This document shows positions 24,753 through 60,501 of a stretch of 62,238 nucleotides of DNA, piece by piece; position 1 is the first letter of the stretch, and the number at the start of each line of letters is the position of its first letter. The notes under the pieces were generated by a model that saw only the letters and a program-made list of their open reading frames with translations, was not told the DNA's origin and did no database searches. Both the position numbers and the translations under genes were made by a program. The DNA comes from an uncultured Rikenella sp. (GTDB taxonomy: Bacteria > Bacteroidota > Bacteroidia > Bacteroidales > VadinHA17): contig CAYPKP010000006.1 in NCBI GenBank assembly GCA_964411345.1, positions 25,942 to 88,179 of the forward strand, given 5' to 3'.

Positions 24753-25002
24753 ATGATTAATTACTATTTTATTGGTCTGAAGGAATTTACATAAAATAAA
24801 ACAATCATTCGCTTTTGTGATTTTCTGCTCCTGTAAGGTCTTTTCACCTGCTCTGTTTGCAGGATGGAACTTGTATTATGAACATTGATCATATCCCTGT
24901 CTGAGTGGCTGCTGATGAAGGCATCCCCGGGCATGCTCCGGGACTAAAGTTACACATTCGGGCAAAATATTTAAATTGCAATCCGGATTTAAAGCAGCAG
25001 AG

Positions 25003-26205
25003 ATGAAAAAAGCAGTGGTATTGCTGGCAGTTGTCGGCATGATGGTCTCATGCAGGCCCTCATCAGAAGGATTCCTTCATTCGGATGGCAGGCATATGGT
25101 AAACGGAGAAGGTGAATTTGTTTTATTGAGGGGAATTGGCCTGGGAGGCTGGATGCTGCAGGAGCCTTACATGCTCAGGCTCTCCGGGGTGGCTTCCGCG
25201 CAGTATGATATCAGGAAGAGGATAGCCGCCCTGACGGGAGAGGAGAGATGTGCGGAGTTTTACGATGCCTGGCTGGCCAACATGGTCACGCGCAGGGATA
25301 TCGACTCCCTTAAGGCATGGGGATTTAATTCGGTGAGGCTTGCCATGCACTACAACCTGTTTACCCCGCCGGTTGAGGAGGAGCCCGTGGCAGGAGAGAA
25401 CAGCTGGCTGGAGAAGGGCTTTTTGATGACTGATTCCCTTCTGAGCTGGTGCGCGGCGAATGAGATCTACCTGATTCTCGATCTCCATGCGGCACCGGGA
25501 GGACAGGGGAATGACATTCCCATTGCCGATGTCGACACCACAAAGGCAAATCTGTGGGAGAGTGAGCTGAACCGGAAGAAGACCGTTGCCCTCTGGGGCA
25601 AGCTTGCAGGGAGGTACAGTGATGAACCGTGGATTGGAGGCTATGACCTGATAAATGAAACAAATTATCCTCTTGAGGACAATGTTGAGCTCCGCCGGCT
25701 CTTTCTCGAAATCACCGAGGCAATACGGGCCGTTGACACCAACCACATCATTTTCATCGAAGGCAATCATTTTGCCACTGATTTCAGGGGCGTGACCCCT
25801 CCGTGGGATAACAATATGGTCTATAGCTTTCACAAGTACTGGAACCCCACAACTGTTGAAACCATTCAGAAGTATCTTGATATCAGGGATGAGTACAATG
25901 TCCCCCTCTGGATGGGCGAGTCAGGCGAGAACAACAACGAATGGTACCGGTCAGCCGTGGAGCTTTTTGAAGCTGACAGCATAGGGTGGGCGTGGTGGAC
26001 GCTCAAGAAGCTTGATTCCGAAAGCGGCATCATGAATGTCACTCCGCCTGAAGGTTACCGGCAGATCATCGATTACTGGAAGGGCCACGGCCCGGCCCCT
26101 GAACCTGACGAGGCACACCGTACGCTGATGCAACTCACTGAGAACATACGTATTGAGAACTGCGATGTCAACTACGGAGTGCTGAATGCATTGTTAGCAC
26201 GGTAG
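25003..26205 (+). CDS. Glycoside hydrolase family 5, lipoprotein
   Basis: GIGLGGWMLQEPYM, GFNSVRLAMHY, LDLHAAPGGQ, GYDLINE, LWMGESGEN; lipobox MVSC; start at 25003. Confidence 0.9.
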   Translation: MKKAVVLLAVVGMMVSCRPSSEGFLHSDGRHMVNGEGEFVLLRGIGLGGWMLQEPYMLRLSGVASAQYDIRKRIAALTGEERCAEFYDAWLANMVTRRDIDSLKAWGFNSVRLAMHYNLFTPPVEEEPVAGENSWLEKGFLMTDSLLSWCAANEIYLILDLHAAPGGQGNDIPIADVDTTKANLWESELNRKKTVALWGKLAGRYSDEPWIGGYDLINETNYPLEDNVELRRLFLEITEAIRAVDTNHIIFIEGNHFATDFRGVTPPWDNNMVYSFHKYWNPTTVETIQKYLDIRDEYNVPLWMGESGENNNEWYRSAVELFEADSIGWAWWTLKKLDSESGIMNVTPPEGYRQIIDYWKGHGPAPEPDEAHRTLMQLTENIRIENCDVNYGVLNALLAR

Positions 26206-26215
26206 TCTCCATATT

Positions 26216-26403
26216 CAGTCTACAGTCTTCAGTCTCCAGCCGGCAGTCAGCACTCAGCAGCCGGCAGTCAGCAATCAGCAGCCGCCAGCCGGCAGTCAGC
26301 ACTCAGCATCTTGCCAACCTAAGTACCCGATTATGAATTCTTAATTCTTATTTCTTAATTCCTCTCACTACTGCCTATTGCCTATTCGCTACTCCCTGAT
26401 TCC
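26216..26403. repeat. Heptanucleotide-period tandem repeat tract
   Basis: 14 in-register CA-initial heptamers (cagtcta, cagtctt, cagtctc, cagccgg, cagtcag, cactcag...) at 26216-26313, then 10 T-rich heptamers (ttaattc, ttatttc, tactgcc, tattgcc...) at 26334-26403. Confidence 0.9.
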
Positions 26404-26503
26404 TAAGTATAAATACTAATGGAAAAATAGGCTAAAAGCCCGTTCCCGCCCTCCCCGGTCATTGTTAATTTTGAACTTCCCAAAAAGGGCAACTACGGAA
26501 CTT

Positions 26504-27253
26504 ATGGAAGATCTCTATTCGAGGCTAATGCAGGATGTCCGTTTCGAGGAGGGGCTGAACGCATGCATGAACTGCGGCATCTGCACCGGCATCTGTCCGG
26601 CAGCCGAATATTACAGCTATGACCCGCGCAGGGTGGTGGATCTTGTTCAGACACGCAACAATGACGTTATCAGGGAGTTGCTGAAGAGCGAAACCATTTG
26701 GTACTGCGGGCAGTGCATGAGCTGCAAAACCCGCTGTCCCAGGGGCAACACCCCCGGCATGGTTATCATGGCACTGCGCAAACTGTCGCAGGAGCTGGGA
26801 TACTTTACCGACTCCGAGAAGGGGAGACAGCAGTTTGCCATCAAGAGAACGGTGGGCGACAATGTGCTTAAGCACGGATACTGTGTCGTCTCCTATGACG
26901 TTGACCCGGCCACGCACCCGGAGCAGGGCCCGGCATGGGAGCATTACTATAACCATCTCGACGATTCGCTTGCGAGGCTGGGCGGTGAGCTCAACGGCAA
27001 GGAGGGGCCCACGCGCAAGATAGCCGATGATGTGCTTGACGAACTCAGAAGCATTTTTGAGGTGACGGGCGGCAAGGATCTCTATGATGCCATCGAGGAG
27101 GCTTCGGAACAGAAGGCAGAGGAGATGGGCATGGAGTTTAAGAAGGAGGGCCGGGACTTTGAATACTTCAGGCATGTGGTGTCTGCAGACAACGGCACTC
27201 ATCAGTGCGAAACGGTAGACGTGAGGAGGGACATATATGAAACCAGAGGGTAA
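26504..27253 (+). CDS. hdrC: HdrC-like 2x[4Fe-4S] protein with long C-terminal extension
   Basis: CMNCGICTGICP and IWYCGQCMSCKTRCP; start at ATG 26504. Confidence 0.8.
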   Translation: MEDLYSRLMQDVRFEEGLNACMNCGICTGICPAAEYYSYDPRRVVDLVQTRNNDVIRELLKSETIWYCGQCMSCKTRCPRGNTPGMVIMALRKLSQELGYFTDSEKGRQQFAIKRTVGDNVLKHGYCVVSYDVDPATHPEQGPAWEHYYNHLDDSLARLGGELNGKEGPTRKIADDVLDELRSIFEVTGGKDLYDAIEEASEQKAEEMGMEFKKEGRDFEYFRHVVSADNGTHQCETVDVRRDIYETRG

Positions 27254-36096: not shown

Positions 36097-36141
36097 GAAA
36101 CAAGCACCTGGGGCAGAAACAATCACCTGGGGCAGAAACAA
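36097..36141. repeat. 19-bp-period direct repeat (~2.4 copies) upstream of the purL promoter
   Basis: CACCTGGGGCAGAAACAA at 36105 and 36124; GAAACAA also at 36097. Confidence 0.85.
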
Positions 36142-60400: not shown

Positions 60401-60501
60401 CACCGGGCACATCCTGCCGGCACCACATCGCTGACGGCACGGGACGCCGGGCGCTGCATCCGGTTGAGATAATGTATGACGCTCTTGAGAAACAGGATTG
60501 A
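57472..60501 (+). CDS. FAD-linked oxidase + [4Fe-4S] + CCG protein (YdiJ/GlcD-like D-2-hydroxyacid dehydrogenase)
   Basis: YATDASAY, PRGAGTSLAGQ, GGMLGNNSCG, GSEGTL, SGEHGDG, CSGSADC, CLSCKACKAECP, HGHCQQKA, CCGMAGAFG. Confidence 0.9.
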   Translation: MVTEEKFRKLAEEITGDLYTDITQRILYATDASAYREVPLAVTRPAGRDDIKKIIAFARREGTSVIPRGAGTSLAGQVVGPGIVMDISKHLNRILEFNPGERWVTVEPGVVLAELNRYVAPHRLQFGPETSTANRCCMGGMLGNNSCGAHSIIHGSVRDHILEVDAVLSDGSEVHFGALTREEFNAKCDGDPGLLETQIYRNLRDILSDQRNAEEIEREFPHPELRRRNNGYALDIMLRTDPFTGNGEKINVCRLLAGSEGTLAFTTVMKLNLVPVTEQKTGLLCAHFNSLQDAVRANIIVLKHSPAAVELIDDYIVNCTGDNIEQSKNRFFIKGDPKAILLIEIIRPTFQEIEKTASAMERDMIAAGYGYHFPLYTGAEEMARVWELRRAGLGVLLNIPGRKKSVQVIEDTAVLPELFPGYLEDVTTVLEKYGLSCAYYAHIATGELHLSPLLDLKDPADIEIFHGLARDIALLVKKYRGSLSGEHGDGRLRGEFIPLMLGEHNYELLKAIKKTWDPASVFNPGKITDTPPITGNLRYPAGVRMKVPGIVFDFPEEEGLLYATEKCSGSADCRKSALVGGAMCPTFMATGDEDKSTRARANILREFLTRSEKTNRFDHEEIYRVMDLCLSCKACKAECPSNVDVAKLKAEFLQHYYDIHHVPFRAWLIAWLPRLYIPGMMVRPLTNLVTSTALFKRIIGFSVKRPIPALSPVTLRAWQRRHIRNSVGFNGSADGAGRKSVTAATVGSGTEDHLLGSRDHLISKGTVCLFADEFTNYNESDIGIKAVMLLERLGYNVIIPRHRESGRTFLSKGLIRSARRLALKNILMLKDVVSEERPLIGIEPSALLTFRDEYPDMAGESLAEDARNIARNALLFEEFISREADRGNITPDQFTDRSLKILLHGHCQQKAVASTAPTVTMLSLPRNYSVEEINDGCCGMAGAFGYEKEHYDLSMKIGEMVLFPAVRAAEAETVIAAPGTSCRHHIADGTGRRALHPVEIMYDALEKQD

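What the first reader, a model, noticed from the sequence alone, without database searches (positions are those of the whole stretch)
26216..26403. ~190-bp tract with strict 7-bp periodicity but changing unit sequence, upstream of the Hdr-like operon
Seen: 14 CA-led heptamers with a higher-order 21-mer (CAGCCGG CAGTCAG CACTCAG, three near-copies), then 10 T/C-rich heptamers of different sequence with the phase shifted by 1 nt. Period is conserved while sequence is not. Known: heptameric STRR repeats are described in filamentous cyanobacteria. Inference: footprint of a mobile or expanding element, or a structural/regulatory DNA tract. I recall similar tracts flanking four-helix-bundle genes in Bacteroidota, but none is present here and that link is unverified.
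Basis: partly seen in the sequence, partly recalled or inferred. Interest (0 to 1): 0.55.

Follow-up and report, generated by a model that had tools for sequence, protein, structure and literature searches.

The report
Gene-less heptamer-repeat composite between two genes
The 190-base stretch is a real run of 7-base repeats, one of about 44 such sites in this Bacteroidales-like genome, built from the same repeat types that bracket small "four-helix-bundle" genes in related species, and it changes completely between species while the promoter next to it stays fixed.

Summary
Window 26216-26403 is 27 consecutive heptamers readable in one 7-nt frame: 14 CAGTCNN-type units with a 21-nt higher-order repeat, a 21-nt linker, 4 AATTCTT units, a CACTA junction and about 5 YTGCCTA units. 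It fills the whole gap between the GH5 stop codon and a conserved promoter region of the Hdr-like operon.

It is not a lone oddity. The genome has 53 period-7 tracts at 44 sites, against 0-7 tracts for other non-harmonic periods.

In 19 same-genus genomes the spacer upstream of the Hdr gene is different in every species, and none carries an ORF in it.

All three unit types are the arms that bracket PF05635 four-helix-bundle genes in this genus, with the same polarity. Arm type tracks protein subtype (28 of 28). Genomes carrying a subtype hold more of its arrays.

The tract does not fold and is not a terminator.

Best reading (0.55): a gene-less composite of cassette-arm arrays that turns over fast and has no locus-specific function.

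This scan has noted the same heptamer/four-helix-bundle theme about 215 times on other DNA. No paper in the held library makes the link.

The parts
24976..26205 (+). GH5 glycoside hydrolase gene (upstream neighbour). Its stop codon is 10 nt before the first clean heptamer.
   Evidence: Pfam PF00150, E 1.7e-27. Relatives' GH5 genes stop at the same position, so the tract has not truncated the gene.
26206..26215 (+). 10-nt stub between the stop codon and the first clean unit. Read with the stop codon it resembles a degenerate CAGTC-type unit.
   Evidence: Sequence. Elsewhere in this genome, arms of this polarity start within 15 nt of a stop codon at 10 sites.
26216..26313 (+). Left array: 14 heptamers of the CAGTCNN family (CAGTCTA, CAGCCGG, CAGTCAG, CACTCAG and others) in 'left-arm' polarity. 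It includes a 21-nt higher-order repeat at 26237-26301.
   Evidence: The same unit family forms the upstream arm of B-type PF05635 cassettes in the genus. Runs of four CAGTCNN units match 77 times in this genome and 0-301 times in relatives.
26314..26334 (+). 21-nt non-repeat linker, exactly three heptamer lengths, ending in GATTAT.
   Evidence: A GATTAT(G/C)AATTC lead-in is shared with the C13:47977 copy. Similar TGATTAT lead-ins occur in other genomes. The linker is otherwise poorly conserved.
26335..26362 (+). Four AATTCTT-family heptamers in 'right-arm' polarity.
   Evidence: The same unit forms the downstream arm of the genome's own PF05635 gene and of all 9 readable C-type cassettes in the genus.
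26363..26369 (+). Junction heptamer carrying most of the CACTA boundary (CACTA spans 26366-26370) that precedes YTGCCTA arrays.
   Evidence: The junction TAATTC-NNN-TCACTA-YTGCCTA recurs at 17 places in 12 of 61 genus genomes; the reversed control pattern gives 0 (alignment). In A-type cassettes CACTA follows within a few bases of the PF05635 stop codon.
26370..26403 (+). About five YTGCCTA-family heptamers (ACTGCCT, ATTGCCT, then decaying units) in 'right-arm' polarity. They end exactly where cross-species conservation begins.
   Evidence: The same unit forms the downstream arm of A-type PF05635 cassettes. ACTGCC-type units abut the conserved box in 12 of the 19 relatives, and here.
26404..26503 (+). 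Conserved promoter/leader of the Hdr-like operon (context, not part of the repeat). It holds a TAAGTATAAATAC box at 26404-26416 and TAATTTTG at 26466-26473.
   Evidence: In a 10-species alignment (A3) 41 columns are invariant and conservation starts at 26404. TAnnTTTG is the Bacteroidota -7 promoter consensus (my own knowledge).
26504..27253 (+). HdrC-like 4Fe-4S dicluster protein, first gene of the Hdr-like operon (downstream neighbour).
   Evidence: Pfam Fer4_8, E 1.2e-9. The following genes carry CCG and FAD-oxidoreductase domains.

Best explanation
The tract is a gene-less composite of tandem heptamer arrays. These arrays belong to a genus-wide system whose complete form is a small PF05635 four-helix-bundle gene bracketed by two inverted arrays.

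The window copy has one left-polarity arm (CAGTCNN x14), a short linker, and two stacked right-polarity arms (AATTCTT x4, then CACTA plus YTGCCTA x5). That is the order expected if arms from three cassette types had piled up at one intergenic hot spot and no gene remained.

Shown here:
- the unit families, the polarity and the CACTA boundary match cassette arms;
- the right half is a unit copied to other loci and other genomes;
- the spacer is replaced in every related species while the adjacent promoter is conserved;
- arm family and protein subtype go together.

Inferred:
- the arrays arrive as cassette arms or arm-only copies;
- they then grow, shrink and homogenise in place by slippage and unequal exchange; the 21-nt higher-order repeat is a trace of this;
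- at this locus they have no sequence-specific function and occupy the stretch between the GH5 stop codon and the Hdr promoter that selection leaves free;
- the four-helix-bundle proteins may recognise their cognate arrays in trans. This last step is the least certain.
For: 1. Period 7 is a genome-wide property. There are 53 tracts at 44 sites, against 0-7 for other non-harmonic periods and 0 in a shuffle.

2. The only assembled PF05635 gene of this genome lies between (AAGAATT)4 and (AATTCTT)4.

3. In 31 genus loci almost every PF05635 gene has inverted short-period arms. Arm unit follows protein subtype:
- A: TAGGCAG/CTGCCTA, 10 of 10;
- B: GTCGGCA/GACTGCC, 8 of 8;
- C: AAGAATT/AATTCTT, 10 of 10 upstream arms and 9 of 9 readable downstream arms.

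4. At one conserved locus, types A and B are interleaved on trees of both flanks. Sister pairs have support up to 1.0, implying at least 3 switches, and gene and arms switch together.

5. Genome-wide array abundance follows the resident gene type:
- CAGTCNN median 127 in B genomes against 5.5 in A genomes (p 0.005);
- YTGCCTA median 32 against 7.5 (p 0.007);
- the dominant family matches the cassette type in 16 of 17 genomes;
- AATTCTT median 32 with the C gene against 1 without (p 2e-5).

6. Polarity is fixed. Arms abutting a stop codon read CAGT-type in that gene's sense 18 times and the opposite way 0 times. All 9 two-arm gene-less sites run left-type then right-type. The window tract obeys both rules.

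7. The right half has a 58-nt copy at 90% identity at C13:47977. Its junction recurs in 12 of 61 genomes.

8. Across 80 loci from many phyla, period 7 is the best period in 96 of 154 PF05635 flanks, against 21 of 149 control stretches. The arms are inverted in 47 of 77 loci, against 1 of 77 after shuffling.

9. In 19 relatives the spacer differs in every species, while conservation starts exactly at 26404.
Against: - No relative carries a PF05635 ORF at this site, so descent from a cassette here is inferred from vocabulary, polarity and junctions. It was not observed.
- The two halves are not complementary and do not fold, unlike true cassette arms.
- Arrays are plentiful in genomes with no detectable PF05635 gene: G070 has 77 CAGTCNN hits, and G054 and G072 have 46-47 AATTCTT hits. 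A resident gene is therefore not required.
- The gene-array abundance tests use related genomes that are not independent. Only 2 of 3 sister pairs agree.
- ACTGCC-type units abut the promoter box in 12 of the 19 relatives even where the upstream gene differs. This could mean that part is kept by selection.
- PF05635 proteins have no known enzymatic or DNA-mobilising activity.
Confidence: 0.55

Rival explanations
1. The tract is an ordinary simple-sequence repeat. Heptamer arrays arise and change in place by replication slippage, as proposed for the general excess of 7-nt repeats in bacteria. They have nothing to do with four-helix-bundle genes, which merely tend to sit in repeat-rich intergenic DNA.
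For: - A 21-nt higher-order repeat and point-variant units are typical of slippage and unequal exchange.
- Arrays are abundant in genomes without PF05635.
- ACTGCC-type units persist at the same boundary across species with changing unit sequence, which looks like in-place evolution.
- A heptamer excess attributed to polymerase slippage is cited in PMC4679880.
Against: Slippage alone does not predict any of the following:
- the fixed left-then-right polarity (9 of 9) or the 18:0 stop-codon rule;
- a conserved inter-array junction copied to 17 places in 12 genomes;
- a 58-nt composite copy at another locus;
- one-to-one pairing of arm unit with protein subtype through repeated switches;
- the strong enrichment of inverted period-7 arrays next to PF05635 genes across phyla.
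Confidence: 0.2
2. The tract is a functional cis element of the flanking genes: a 3'-UTR or termination/stability structure for GH5, or an upstream insulator or spacer for the Hdr-operon promoter.
For: - It starts 10 nt after the GH5 stop and ends exactly at the conserved promoter region.
- Right-polarity ACTGCC-type units abut the conserved box in 12 of the 19 relatives, even where the upstream neighbour differs.
- In Xanthomonas most heptamer repeats are transcribed and lie within 50 bp of stop codons (PMC4692102).
Against: - There is no stable fold: DNA z -0.95, RNA z +0.22.
- No terminator-like site lies on the + strand within the tract, and there is no Rfam match.
- Sequence, length (about 80 to 370 nt where GH5 is the neighbour) and repeat family differ in every species. 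Some species have no array at all (L008, L011, L020), yet the operon and promoter are conserved.
Confidence: 0.15
3. The tract is a contingency (phase-variation) locus. Changes in heptamer copy number switch or tune expression of the Hdr-like operon.
For: It is a tandem repeat upstream of an operon. Assembly breaks in arrays suggest length heterogeneity.
Against: - The arrays lie at least 60 nt upstream of the -7 box. They are not between promoter elements or inside a reading frame.
- The same arrays occur at about 44 sites, mostly at gene 3' ends and between convergent genes. That pattern does not fit locus-specific switching.
- The read-level test was not possible.
Confidence: 0.05

Closest known systems
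STRR sequences of heterocystous cyanobacteria and the wider class of long heptanucleotide simple-sequence repeats (TAACTGA repeats of Beggiatoaceae, Cyanobacteria and Bacteroidetes, PMC4679880; GGGAATC/GGGGAYT repeats of Xanthomonas and Nostoc, PMC4692102)
   Same: - Tandem 7-nt units, strictly or mostly intergenic, at many dispersed loci, with several unit families per genome and variable copy number.
- They are often within tens of bases of stop codons, and their function is unknown.
- From my memory of Mazel et al. 1990 (not checked here), STRR1 (CCCCAGT) and STRR3 (CAACAGT) are rotations of CAGTCCC and CAGTCAA. That places them in the CAGTCNN family seen here.
   Different: - The host here is a Bacteroidales-like MAG.
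- Several families are concatenated in one frame in a fixed order with a conserved junction.
- Polarity is fixed.
- The units are not G-rich and cannot form the G-quadruplexes proposed for GGGAATC.
- They do not sit immediately before start codons as TAACTGA does in Beggiatoaceae.
- None of those papers links the repeats to PF05635 genes.
REP/REPIN elements and their RAYT transposases (Bertels and Rainey 2011, PMC3116915)
   Same: - Short extragenic repeats dispersed through the genome, usually as inverted doublets.
- A single-copy protein gene is itself flanked by the repeats.
- Each repeat family pairs with its own gene subtype.
- Many gene-less copies occur per gene.
   Different: - The arms here are tandem arrays of 7-9-nt units, not 20-40-nt imperfect palindromes.
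- The associated gene is a four-helix-bundle protein with no known catalytic activity, not an HUH/Y1 transposase.
- No Y1_Tnp gene was found in this genome.
- The window copy does not form a hairpin.
ORF-bearing intervening sequences of 23S rRNA (Coxiella, Leptospira; S23p = PF05635; PMC4990558)
   Same: The same protein family is enclosed by complementary flanks in a small insertion-like unit.
   Different: This tract is not in an rRNA gene, carries no ORF, and its flanks are heptamer arrays rather than a processing stem.
Avd accessory protein of diversity-generating retroelements (PF05635-like; PMC10053308)
   Same: It is a homologous four-helix-bundle protein that acts with nucleic acid in a retroelement. 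This hints that the cassette proteins bind nucleic acid.
   Different: No reverse transcriptase or template/variable repeat pair lies next to the cassettes examined here. This bears on the cassette gene, not on the window tract itself.

Membership tests
Long heptanucleotide simple-sequence repeats (STRR-like class) | Head-to-tail tandem units of 7 nt, several copies | tested here: met
   27 units in one frame. Lag-7 self-match is 0.63. TRF reports period 7 four times.
Long heptanucleotide simple-sequence repeats (STRR-like class) | Many dispersed, mainly intergenic loci, with period 7 in excess over other periods | tested here: met
   53 tracts at 44 sites, against 0-7 for other non-harmonic periods. 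34 of 44 sites overlap no ORF of 110 aa or more by over 25 nt.
Long heptanucleotide simple-sequence repeats (STRR-like class) | Copy-number variation between strains or within populations | not testable with these tools
Only between-species replacement was seen.
PF05635 four-helix-bundle cassette with inverted arrays (defined by this scan; not found in the held literature) | A PF05635 ORF between the two arms | tested here: not met
   No ORF lies in the 21-nt linker. The only PF05635 match in the genome is on another contig. No such ORF lies at this site in any of the 61 sampled genus genomes, which include the 19 whose spacer was read.
PF05635 four-helix-bundle cassette with inverted arrays (defined by this scan; not found in the held literature) | Arms are reverse complements of each other | tested here: not met
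   Left CAGTCNN against right AATTCTT and YTGCCTA. Folding z is -0.95 (DNA) and +0.22 (RNA). Only GGCAGT/ACTGCC hexamers are complementary.
PF05635 four-helix-bundle cassette with inverted arrays (defined by this scan; not found in the held literature) | Arm unit families, inner boundary and left-then-right polarity as in cassettes of the same genus | tested here: met
   CAGTCNN, AATTCTT and CACTA-YTGCCTA are the arms of B-, C- and A-type cassettes. Polarity is left then right, as at all 9 two-arm sites.
REP/REPIN-RAYT | Imperfect palindromic REP unit forming a hairpin | tested here: not met
   The tract has no significant fold. Its units are direct tandem heptamers.
REP/REPIN-RAYT | RAYT (Y1_Tnp, PF01797) gene in the genome, flanked by the repeats | tested here: not met
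   No PF01797 match in G000, which is 90.6% complete. The control search rang in 6 of 14 known genomes.
Intrinsic terminator | G+C-rich stem-loop followed by a T run on the coding strand after the stop codon | tested here: not met
   No + strand terminator-like site in 26100-26560.
Phase-variable (contingency) repeat | Repeat lies within a reading frame or between core promoter elements | tested here: not met
   The tract ends at 26403. The TAnnTTTG box is at 26466-26473 and the ATG at 26504.
CRISPR array | Repeats of 24-48 nt alternating with unique spacers of similar length | tested here: not met
   The units are 7 nt and contiguous, with no spacers.
Known structured RNA (Rfam) | Match to a curated covariance model | tested here: not met
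   No match up to E = 1 in 25900-26800 on either strand.

The most novel reading that the evidence does not exclude
PF05635 four-helix-bundle proteins are the sequence-specific trans-acting partners of bacterial heptamer arrays. Each protein subtype recognises its own 7-nt unit, travels with a pair of cognate arms, and promotes or maintains gene-less arrays of that unit across the genome. This would be a REPIN/RAYT-like relationship built on a non-transposase protein. It would explain the long-noted excess of heptanucleotide repeats in bacteria, including cyanobacterial STRRs. The window tract would then be a stack of three such orphan arrays.
Probability: 0.3. Interest if true: 0.8.

Novelty: new member of a known kind. 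Interest (0 to 1): 0.45.

Why it matters
Heptanucleotide repeats have been noted in cyanobacteria, Xanthomonas, Beggiatoaceae and Bacteroidetes for decades without a mechanism. Four-helix-bundle (23S IVS / Avd-like) genes are abundant and uncharacterised.

This tract by itself is an ordinary member of that repeat class. Its surroundings, however, give unusually clean comparative evidence within one genus:
- arm unit and protein subtype switch together at a fixed locus;
- the genome-wide repeat family follows the resident gene subtype;
- the arrays have a fixed polarity and a copied inter-array junction.

Together these turn a descriptive puzzle into a direct bench test: does each protein bind its cognate repeat? 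They also yield a concrete assembly prediction for this genome. For annotation, such tracts should be read as fast-evolving filler that stops exactly at functional boundaries, which helps to locate promoters.

Tried and rejected
- **Hairpin, terminator or structured RNA.** Folding of 26206-26420 as DNA and RNA was no better than shuffles. There is no + strand terminator and no Rfam hit. Rejected.
- **Hidden ORF or four-helix-bundle gene at this site in relatives.** None was found in the genus genomes searched. Rejected.
- **REP/RAYT system.** There is no Y1_Tnp gene. Rejected as membership and kept as an analogy.
The relatives' GH5 genes end at the same position. Rejected.
- **Assembly chimera.** GH5-Hdr synteny is conserved in 10 relatives, so the junction is real. 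Unit number remains uncertain.
- **Read-level length variation.** Not done.
- **The search for related loci with a too-diverse alignment** failed. It was repeated with a narrower alignment.
- **Literature link between PF05635 and heptamer repeats.** Nothing was found in the held library.
- **Checking the STRR unit sequences in the library** failed. Those sequences are quoted from memory.
- **The reversed-pattern control for AATTCTT** is invalid, because the reversed unit is a rotation of the same repeat.
- **An 18-nt stretch in the GH5 3' end** that is 83% complementary to array units was not pursued. It may be chance.

Full report
**1. What is there**

Window 26216-26403 lies between the stop codon of a GH5 glycoside hydrolase (24976-26205) and the ATG of an HdrC-like iron-sulfur protein (26504). 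That protein is followed by CCG-domain and flavoprotein genes.

Cut into heptamers from 26216, the whole stretch reads in one frame:
- 14 CA-led units (CAGTCTA, CAGTCTT, CAGTCTC, then CAGCCGG/CAGTCAG/CACTCAG in three near-copies);
- three non-repeat heptamers forming a 21-nt linker at 26314-26334;
- four (T/G)AATTCT units at 26335-26362;
- a junction heptamer carrying most of CACTA;
- five ACTGCCT/ATTGCCT-type units that decay towards 26403.

Self-match is 0.63 at lag 7 and 0.15-0.36 at non-multiples of 7. TRF finds period 7 four times and the 21-nt higher-order unit (3.1 copies, 88%).

The second block is two families, and the '1-nt phase shift' only reflects where one starts the unit.

**2. 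More than chance, and not alone**

A whole-genome scan (42-nt windows, at least 70% lag matches, N masked, low-complexity removed) found 53 period-7 tracts totalling 4066 nt.
- Periods 4-6, 8-13 and 15 gave 0-7 tracts each.
- Period 14, a harmonic of 7, gave 35.
- A shuffled genome gave none.

The tracts merge into 44 sites using a small vocabulary: CAGTCNN and its complement GACTGNN, YTGCCTA, AATTCTT, AAATCGC and a few others. Of the 44 sites, 34 overlap no ORF of 110 aa or more by more than 25 nt. Seven contig ends and three scaffold gaps lie in such arrays, so unit numbers in this MAG may be collapsed.

**3. The tract is not a folded element**

As single-stranded DNA or RNA, 26206-26420 folds no better than dinucleotide shuffles (z -0.95 and +0.22). 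There is no + strand terminator-like site and no Rfam match.

**4. Comparative anatomy of the site**

The HdrC-like gene has orthologues (73-97% identity) in same-genus genomes. In 10 of them GH5 is still the upstream neighbour.

Conservation upstream of the ATG begins exactly at window 26404, with a TAAGTATAAATAC box. It runs through a TAnnTTTG box to the ATG, with 41 invariant columns in 10 species.

Everything between the upstream gene and that box differs in every one of 19 species examined:
- other heptamer arrays (CAGTCCA facing GACTGCC in L004 and L009; CCTTAAC/CCTCAGC in L015; AAATCGC plus CTGCCTG in L003; long GACTG-type arrays in L013 and L014);
- a MITE-like element (L003, L007, L010, L017, L022);
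- or no repeat at all (L008, L011, L020).

L018 has the same architecture as the window: a CAGTCNN array, a linker, an AAATCGC array, then a TTGCCGA array. Short ACTGCC-type runs abut the conserved box in 12 of the 19 relatives, as they do here, even where the upstream gene differs. No species has an ORF in the spacer. None of the PF05635 matches in the genus lies at this locus.

**5. The four-helix-bundle connection**

The genome has one assembled PF05635 gene. It lies between (AAGAATT)4 and (AATTCTT)4, which are inverted arms.

In the genus, PF05635 copy number ranges from 0 to 11 per genome. Nearly all of 31 loci examined have inverted short-period arms, mostly of period 7 and some of period 8-9.

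Arm unit follows protein subtype:
- A (N-terminus MESFRELIVWQ) with TAGGCAG upstream and CACTA-CTGCCTA downstream, 10 of 10;
- B (GFKNLIVYQKAF) with GTCGGCA/GACTGCC, 8 of 8;
- C (the genome's own type) with AAGAATT/AATTCTT, 10 of 10 upstream arms and 9 of 9 readable downstream arms.

A and B occupy the same chromosomal locus in different species. On trees of both flanking genes they are interleaved. The sister pairs are L044_A/L051_B (support 1.0 on both flanks), L037_A/L055_B and L034_A/L050_B. Gene and arms have therefore been exchanged together at least three times.

In this genome that locus is a 100-N gap.

The C cassette sits at the 3' end of the same aminotransferase gene in either orientation in different species.

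Across 80 loci from many phyla:
- period 7 is the best period in 96 of 154 flanks, against 21 of 149 control stretches 600 nt away;
- the two flanks are inverted copies in 47 of 77 loci, against 6 for direct comparison and 1 after shuffling;
- arm-unit similarity rises with protein identity (2 of 500 permutations as extreme).

**6. How the window tract maps onto this**

Its three families are exactly the arms of the B, C and A cassette types.

Their polarity is also as in cassettes. CAGTCNN appears as a left arm. AATTCTT and CACTA-YTGCCTA appear as right arms, including the CACTA boundary that in A cassettes follows the gene's stop codon.

Genome-wide, arms that abut a stop codon read CAGT-type in that gene's sense 18 times and never the other way. 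All nine gene-less two-arm sites run left-type then right-type.

The right half of the tract is a copied unit:
- a 58-nt, 90%-identical copy lies at C13:47977-48034;
- the junction TAATTC-NNN-TCACTA-YTGCCTA recurs at 17 places in 12 of 61 genus genomes, with none for the reversed control;
- the core is tightly conserved and the surroundings are variable.

**7. Gene-array coupling at genome level**

Counts of four-unit CAGTCNN runs range from 0 to 301 per genome. Three-unit YTGCCTA runs range from 0 to 149.
- B-type genomes have a CAGTCNN median of 127, against 5.5 in A-type genomes (one-sided Mann-Whitney p 0.005).
- A-type genomes have a YTGCCTA median of 32, against 7.5 (p 0.007).
- The dominant family matches the cassette type in 16 of 17 genomes (Fisher p 4e-4).
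- All 10 genomes with a C-type gene have at least 11 AATTCTT runs (median 32). The 51 without have a median of 1 (p 2e-5).

Caveats:
- The genomes are kin and not independent.
- Only 2 of 3 A/B sister pairs agree.
- Some genomes without any PF05635 match are rich in arrays (G070, G054, G072).

This genome is CAGTCNN-dominant (77 against 14). At the conserved locus it groups with B-type genomes. This predicts a B-type cassette in the gap.

**8. Interpretation**

The best-supported reading is a gene-less composite of cassette-arm arrays at a hot spot. It turns over quickly through replacement, slippage and unequal exchange, and it is bounded only by the GH5 stop codon and the Hdr promoter.

Pure slippage cannot explain polarity, junction copies or arm-protein pairing. 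A cis-regulatory or structural role is not supported by folding or conservation. The recurrent ACTGCC-type units at the promoter boundary keep that possibility alive.

Whether the proteins act on the arrays is inference.

**9. Relation to known systems**

The tract meets the descriptive definition of long heptanucleotide repeats: STRR-like, TAACTGA (PMC4679880) and GGGAATC (PMC4692102).

It works most like REPIN/RAYT (PMC3116915), but it fails that family's defining features: there is no palindromic REP and no Y1 transposase.

The associated protein is related to PDB 2RLD and to DGR Avd (PMC10053308).

No paper in the held library links PF05635 to heptamer arrays. This scan has noted the theme on other DNA about 215 times. 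Those notes were treated as leads, and the link was re-tested here on this genus.

**10. Limits**

- No gene caller, reads or RNA data were available.
The nearest named PF05635 loci are Bacteroidales and Rikenella-like MAGs.

Noticed in passing
window 26404-26503: The promoter/leader of the Hdr-like operon is conserved across at least 10 species. It starts with a TAAGTATAAATAC box containing the inverted repeat GTAT-AA-ATAC, a likely regulator site. It also includes a TAnnTTTG box at 26466-26473. The full box occurs only once in this genome.
   Followed up: partly
G000 C12:31622-31760 (outside the window): In this genome a 100-N scaffold gap sits at the chromosomal locus that holds an A- or B-type four-helix-bundle cassette in 18 related genomes. 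Flank trees and array counts predict a B-type cassette there.
   Followed up: partly
L142-L151 (C-type cassettes in 10 genomes): The same AAGAATT/AATTCTT-armed four-helix-bundle cassette sits at the 3' end of one aminotransferase gene in either orientation in different species. This suggests inversion between its inverted arms, or repeated insertion.
   Followed up: no
L003, L007, L010, L017, L022; G000 C36:19070, C29:15243, C89:5113: A MITE-like element is embedded between heptamer arrays. It starts CCCTGCAATCTGGCT, contains a hairpin and ends TTAACGCTCG. This recalls the small dispersed repeats reported inside cyanobacterial heptamer arrays (from memory).
   Followed up: partly
L033-L061 and L143-L150 (cassette boundaries): Stop codons are often supplied by the first array unit. 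The upstream gene's TAG begins TAGGCAG or TAGTCGG arrays. The four-helix-bundle gene's own TAA begins the TAATTCT array.
   Followed up: no
window 26172-26189: The last 18 nt region of the GH5 coding sequence is 83% complementary to array units at 26243-26260. It could be a remnant arm absorbed into the gene, or chance.
   Followed up: no
L012 (G002), about 120-440 nt upstream of the Hdr ATG: In this species the spacer holds a different tandem repeat of roughly 40-nt period, rich in GAGTAG and CTGAGATAGTA, instead of heptamers.
   Followed up: no
window 36097-36141 and 60408-60440: TRF also reports a 19-nt tandem repeat (2.4 copies, 96%, score 83) and a 17-nt one (2.0 copies). Neither was examined.
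   Followed up: no
G007 (same genus): This genome has about 300 CAGTCNN four-unit runs. It is also the only genome with many matches (42) to the reversed control pattern, so it may hold an additional CTGAC-type array family.
   Followed up: no
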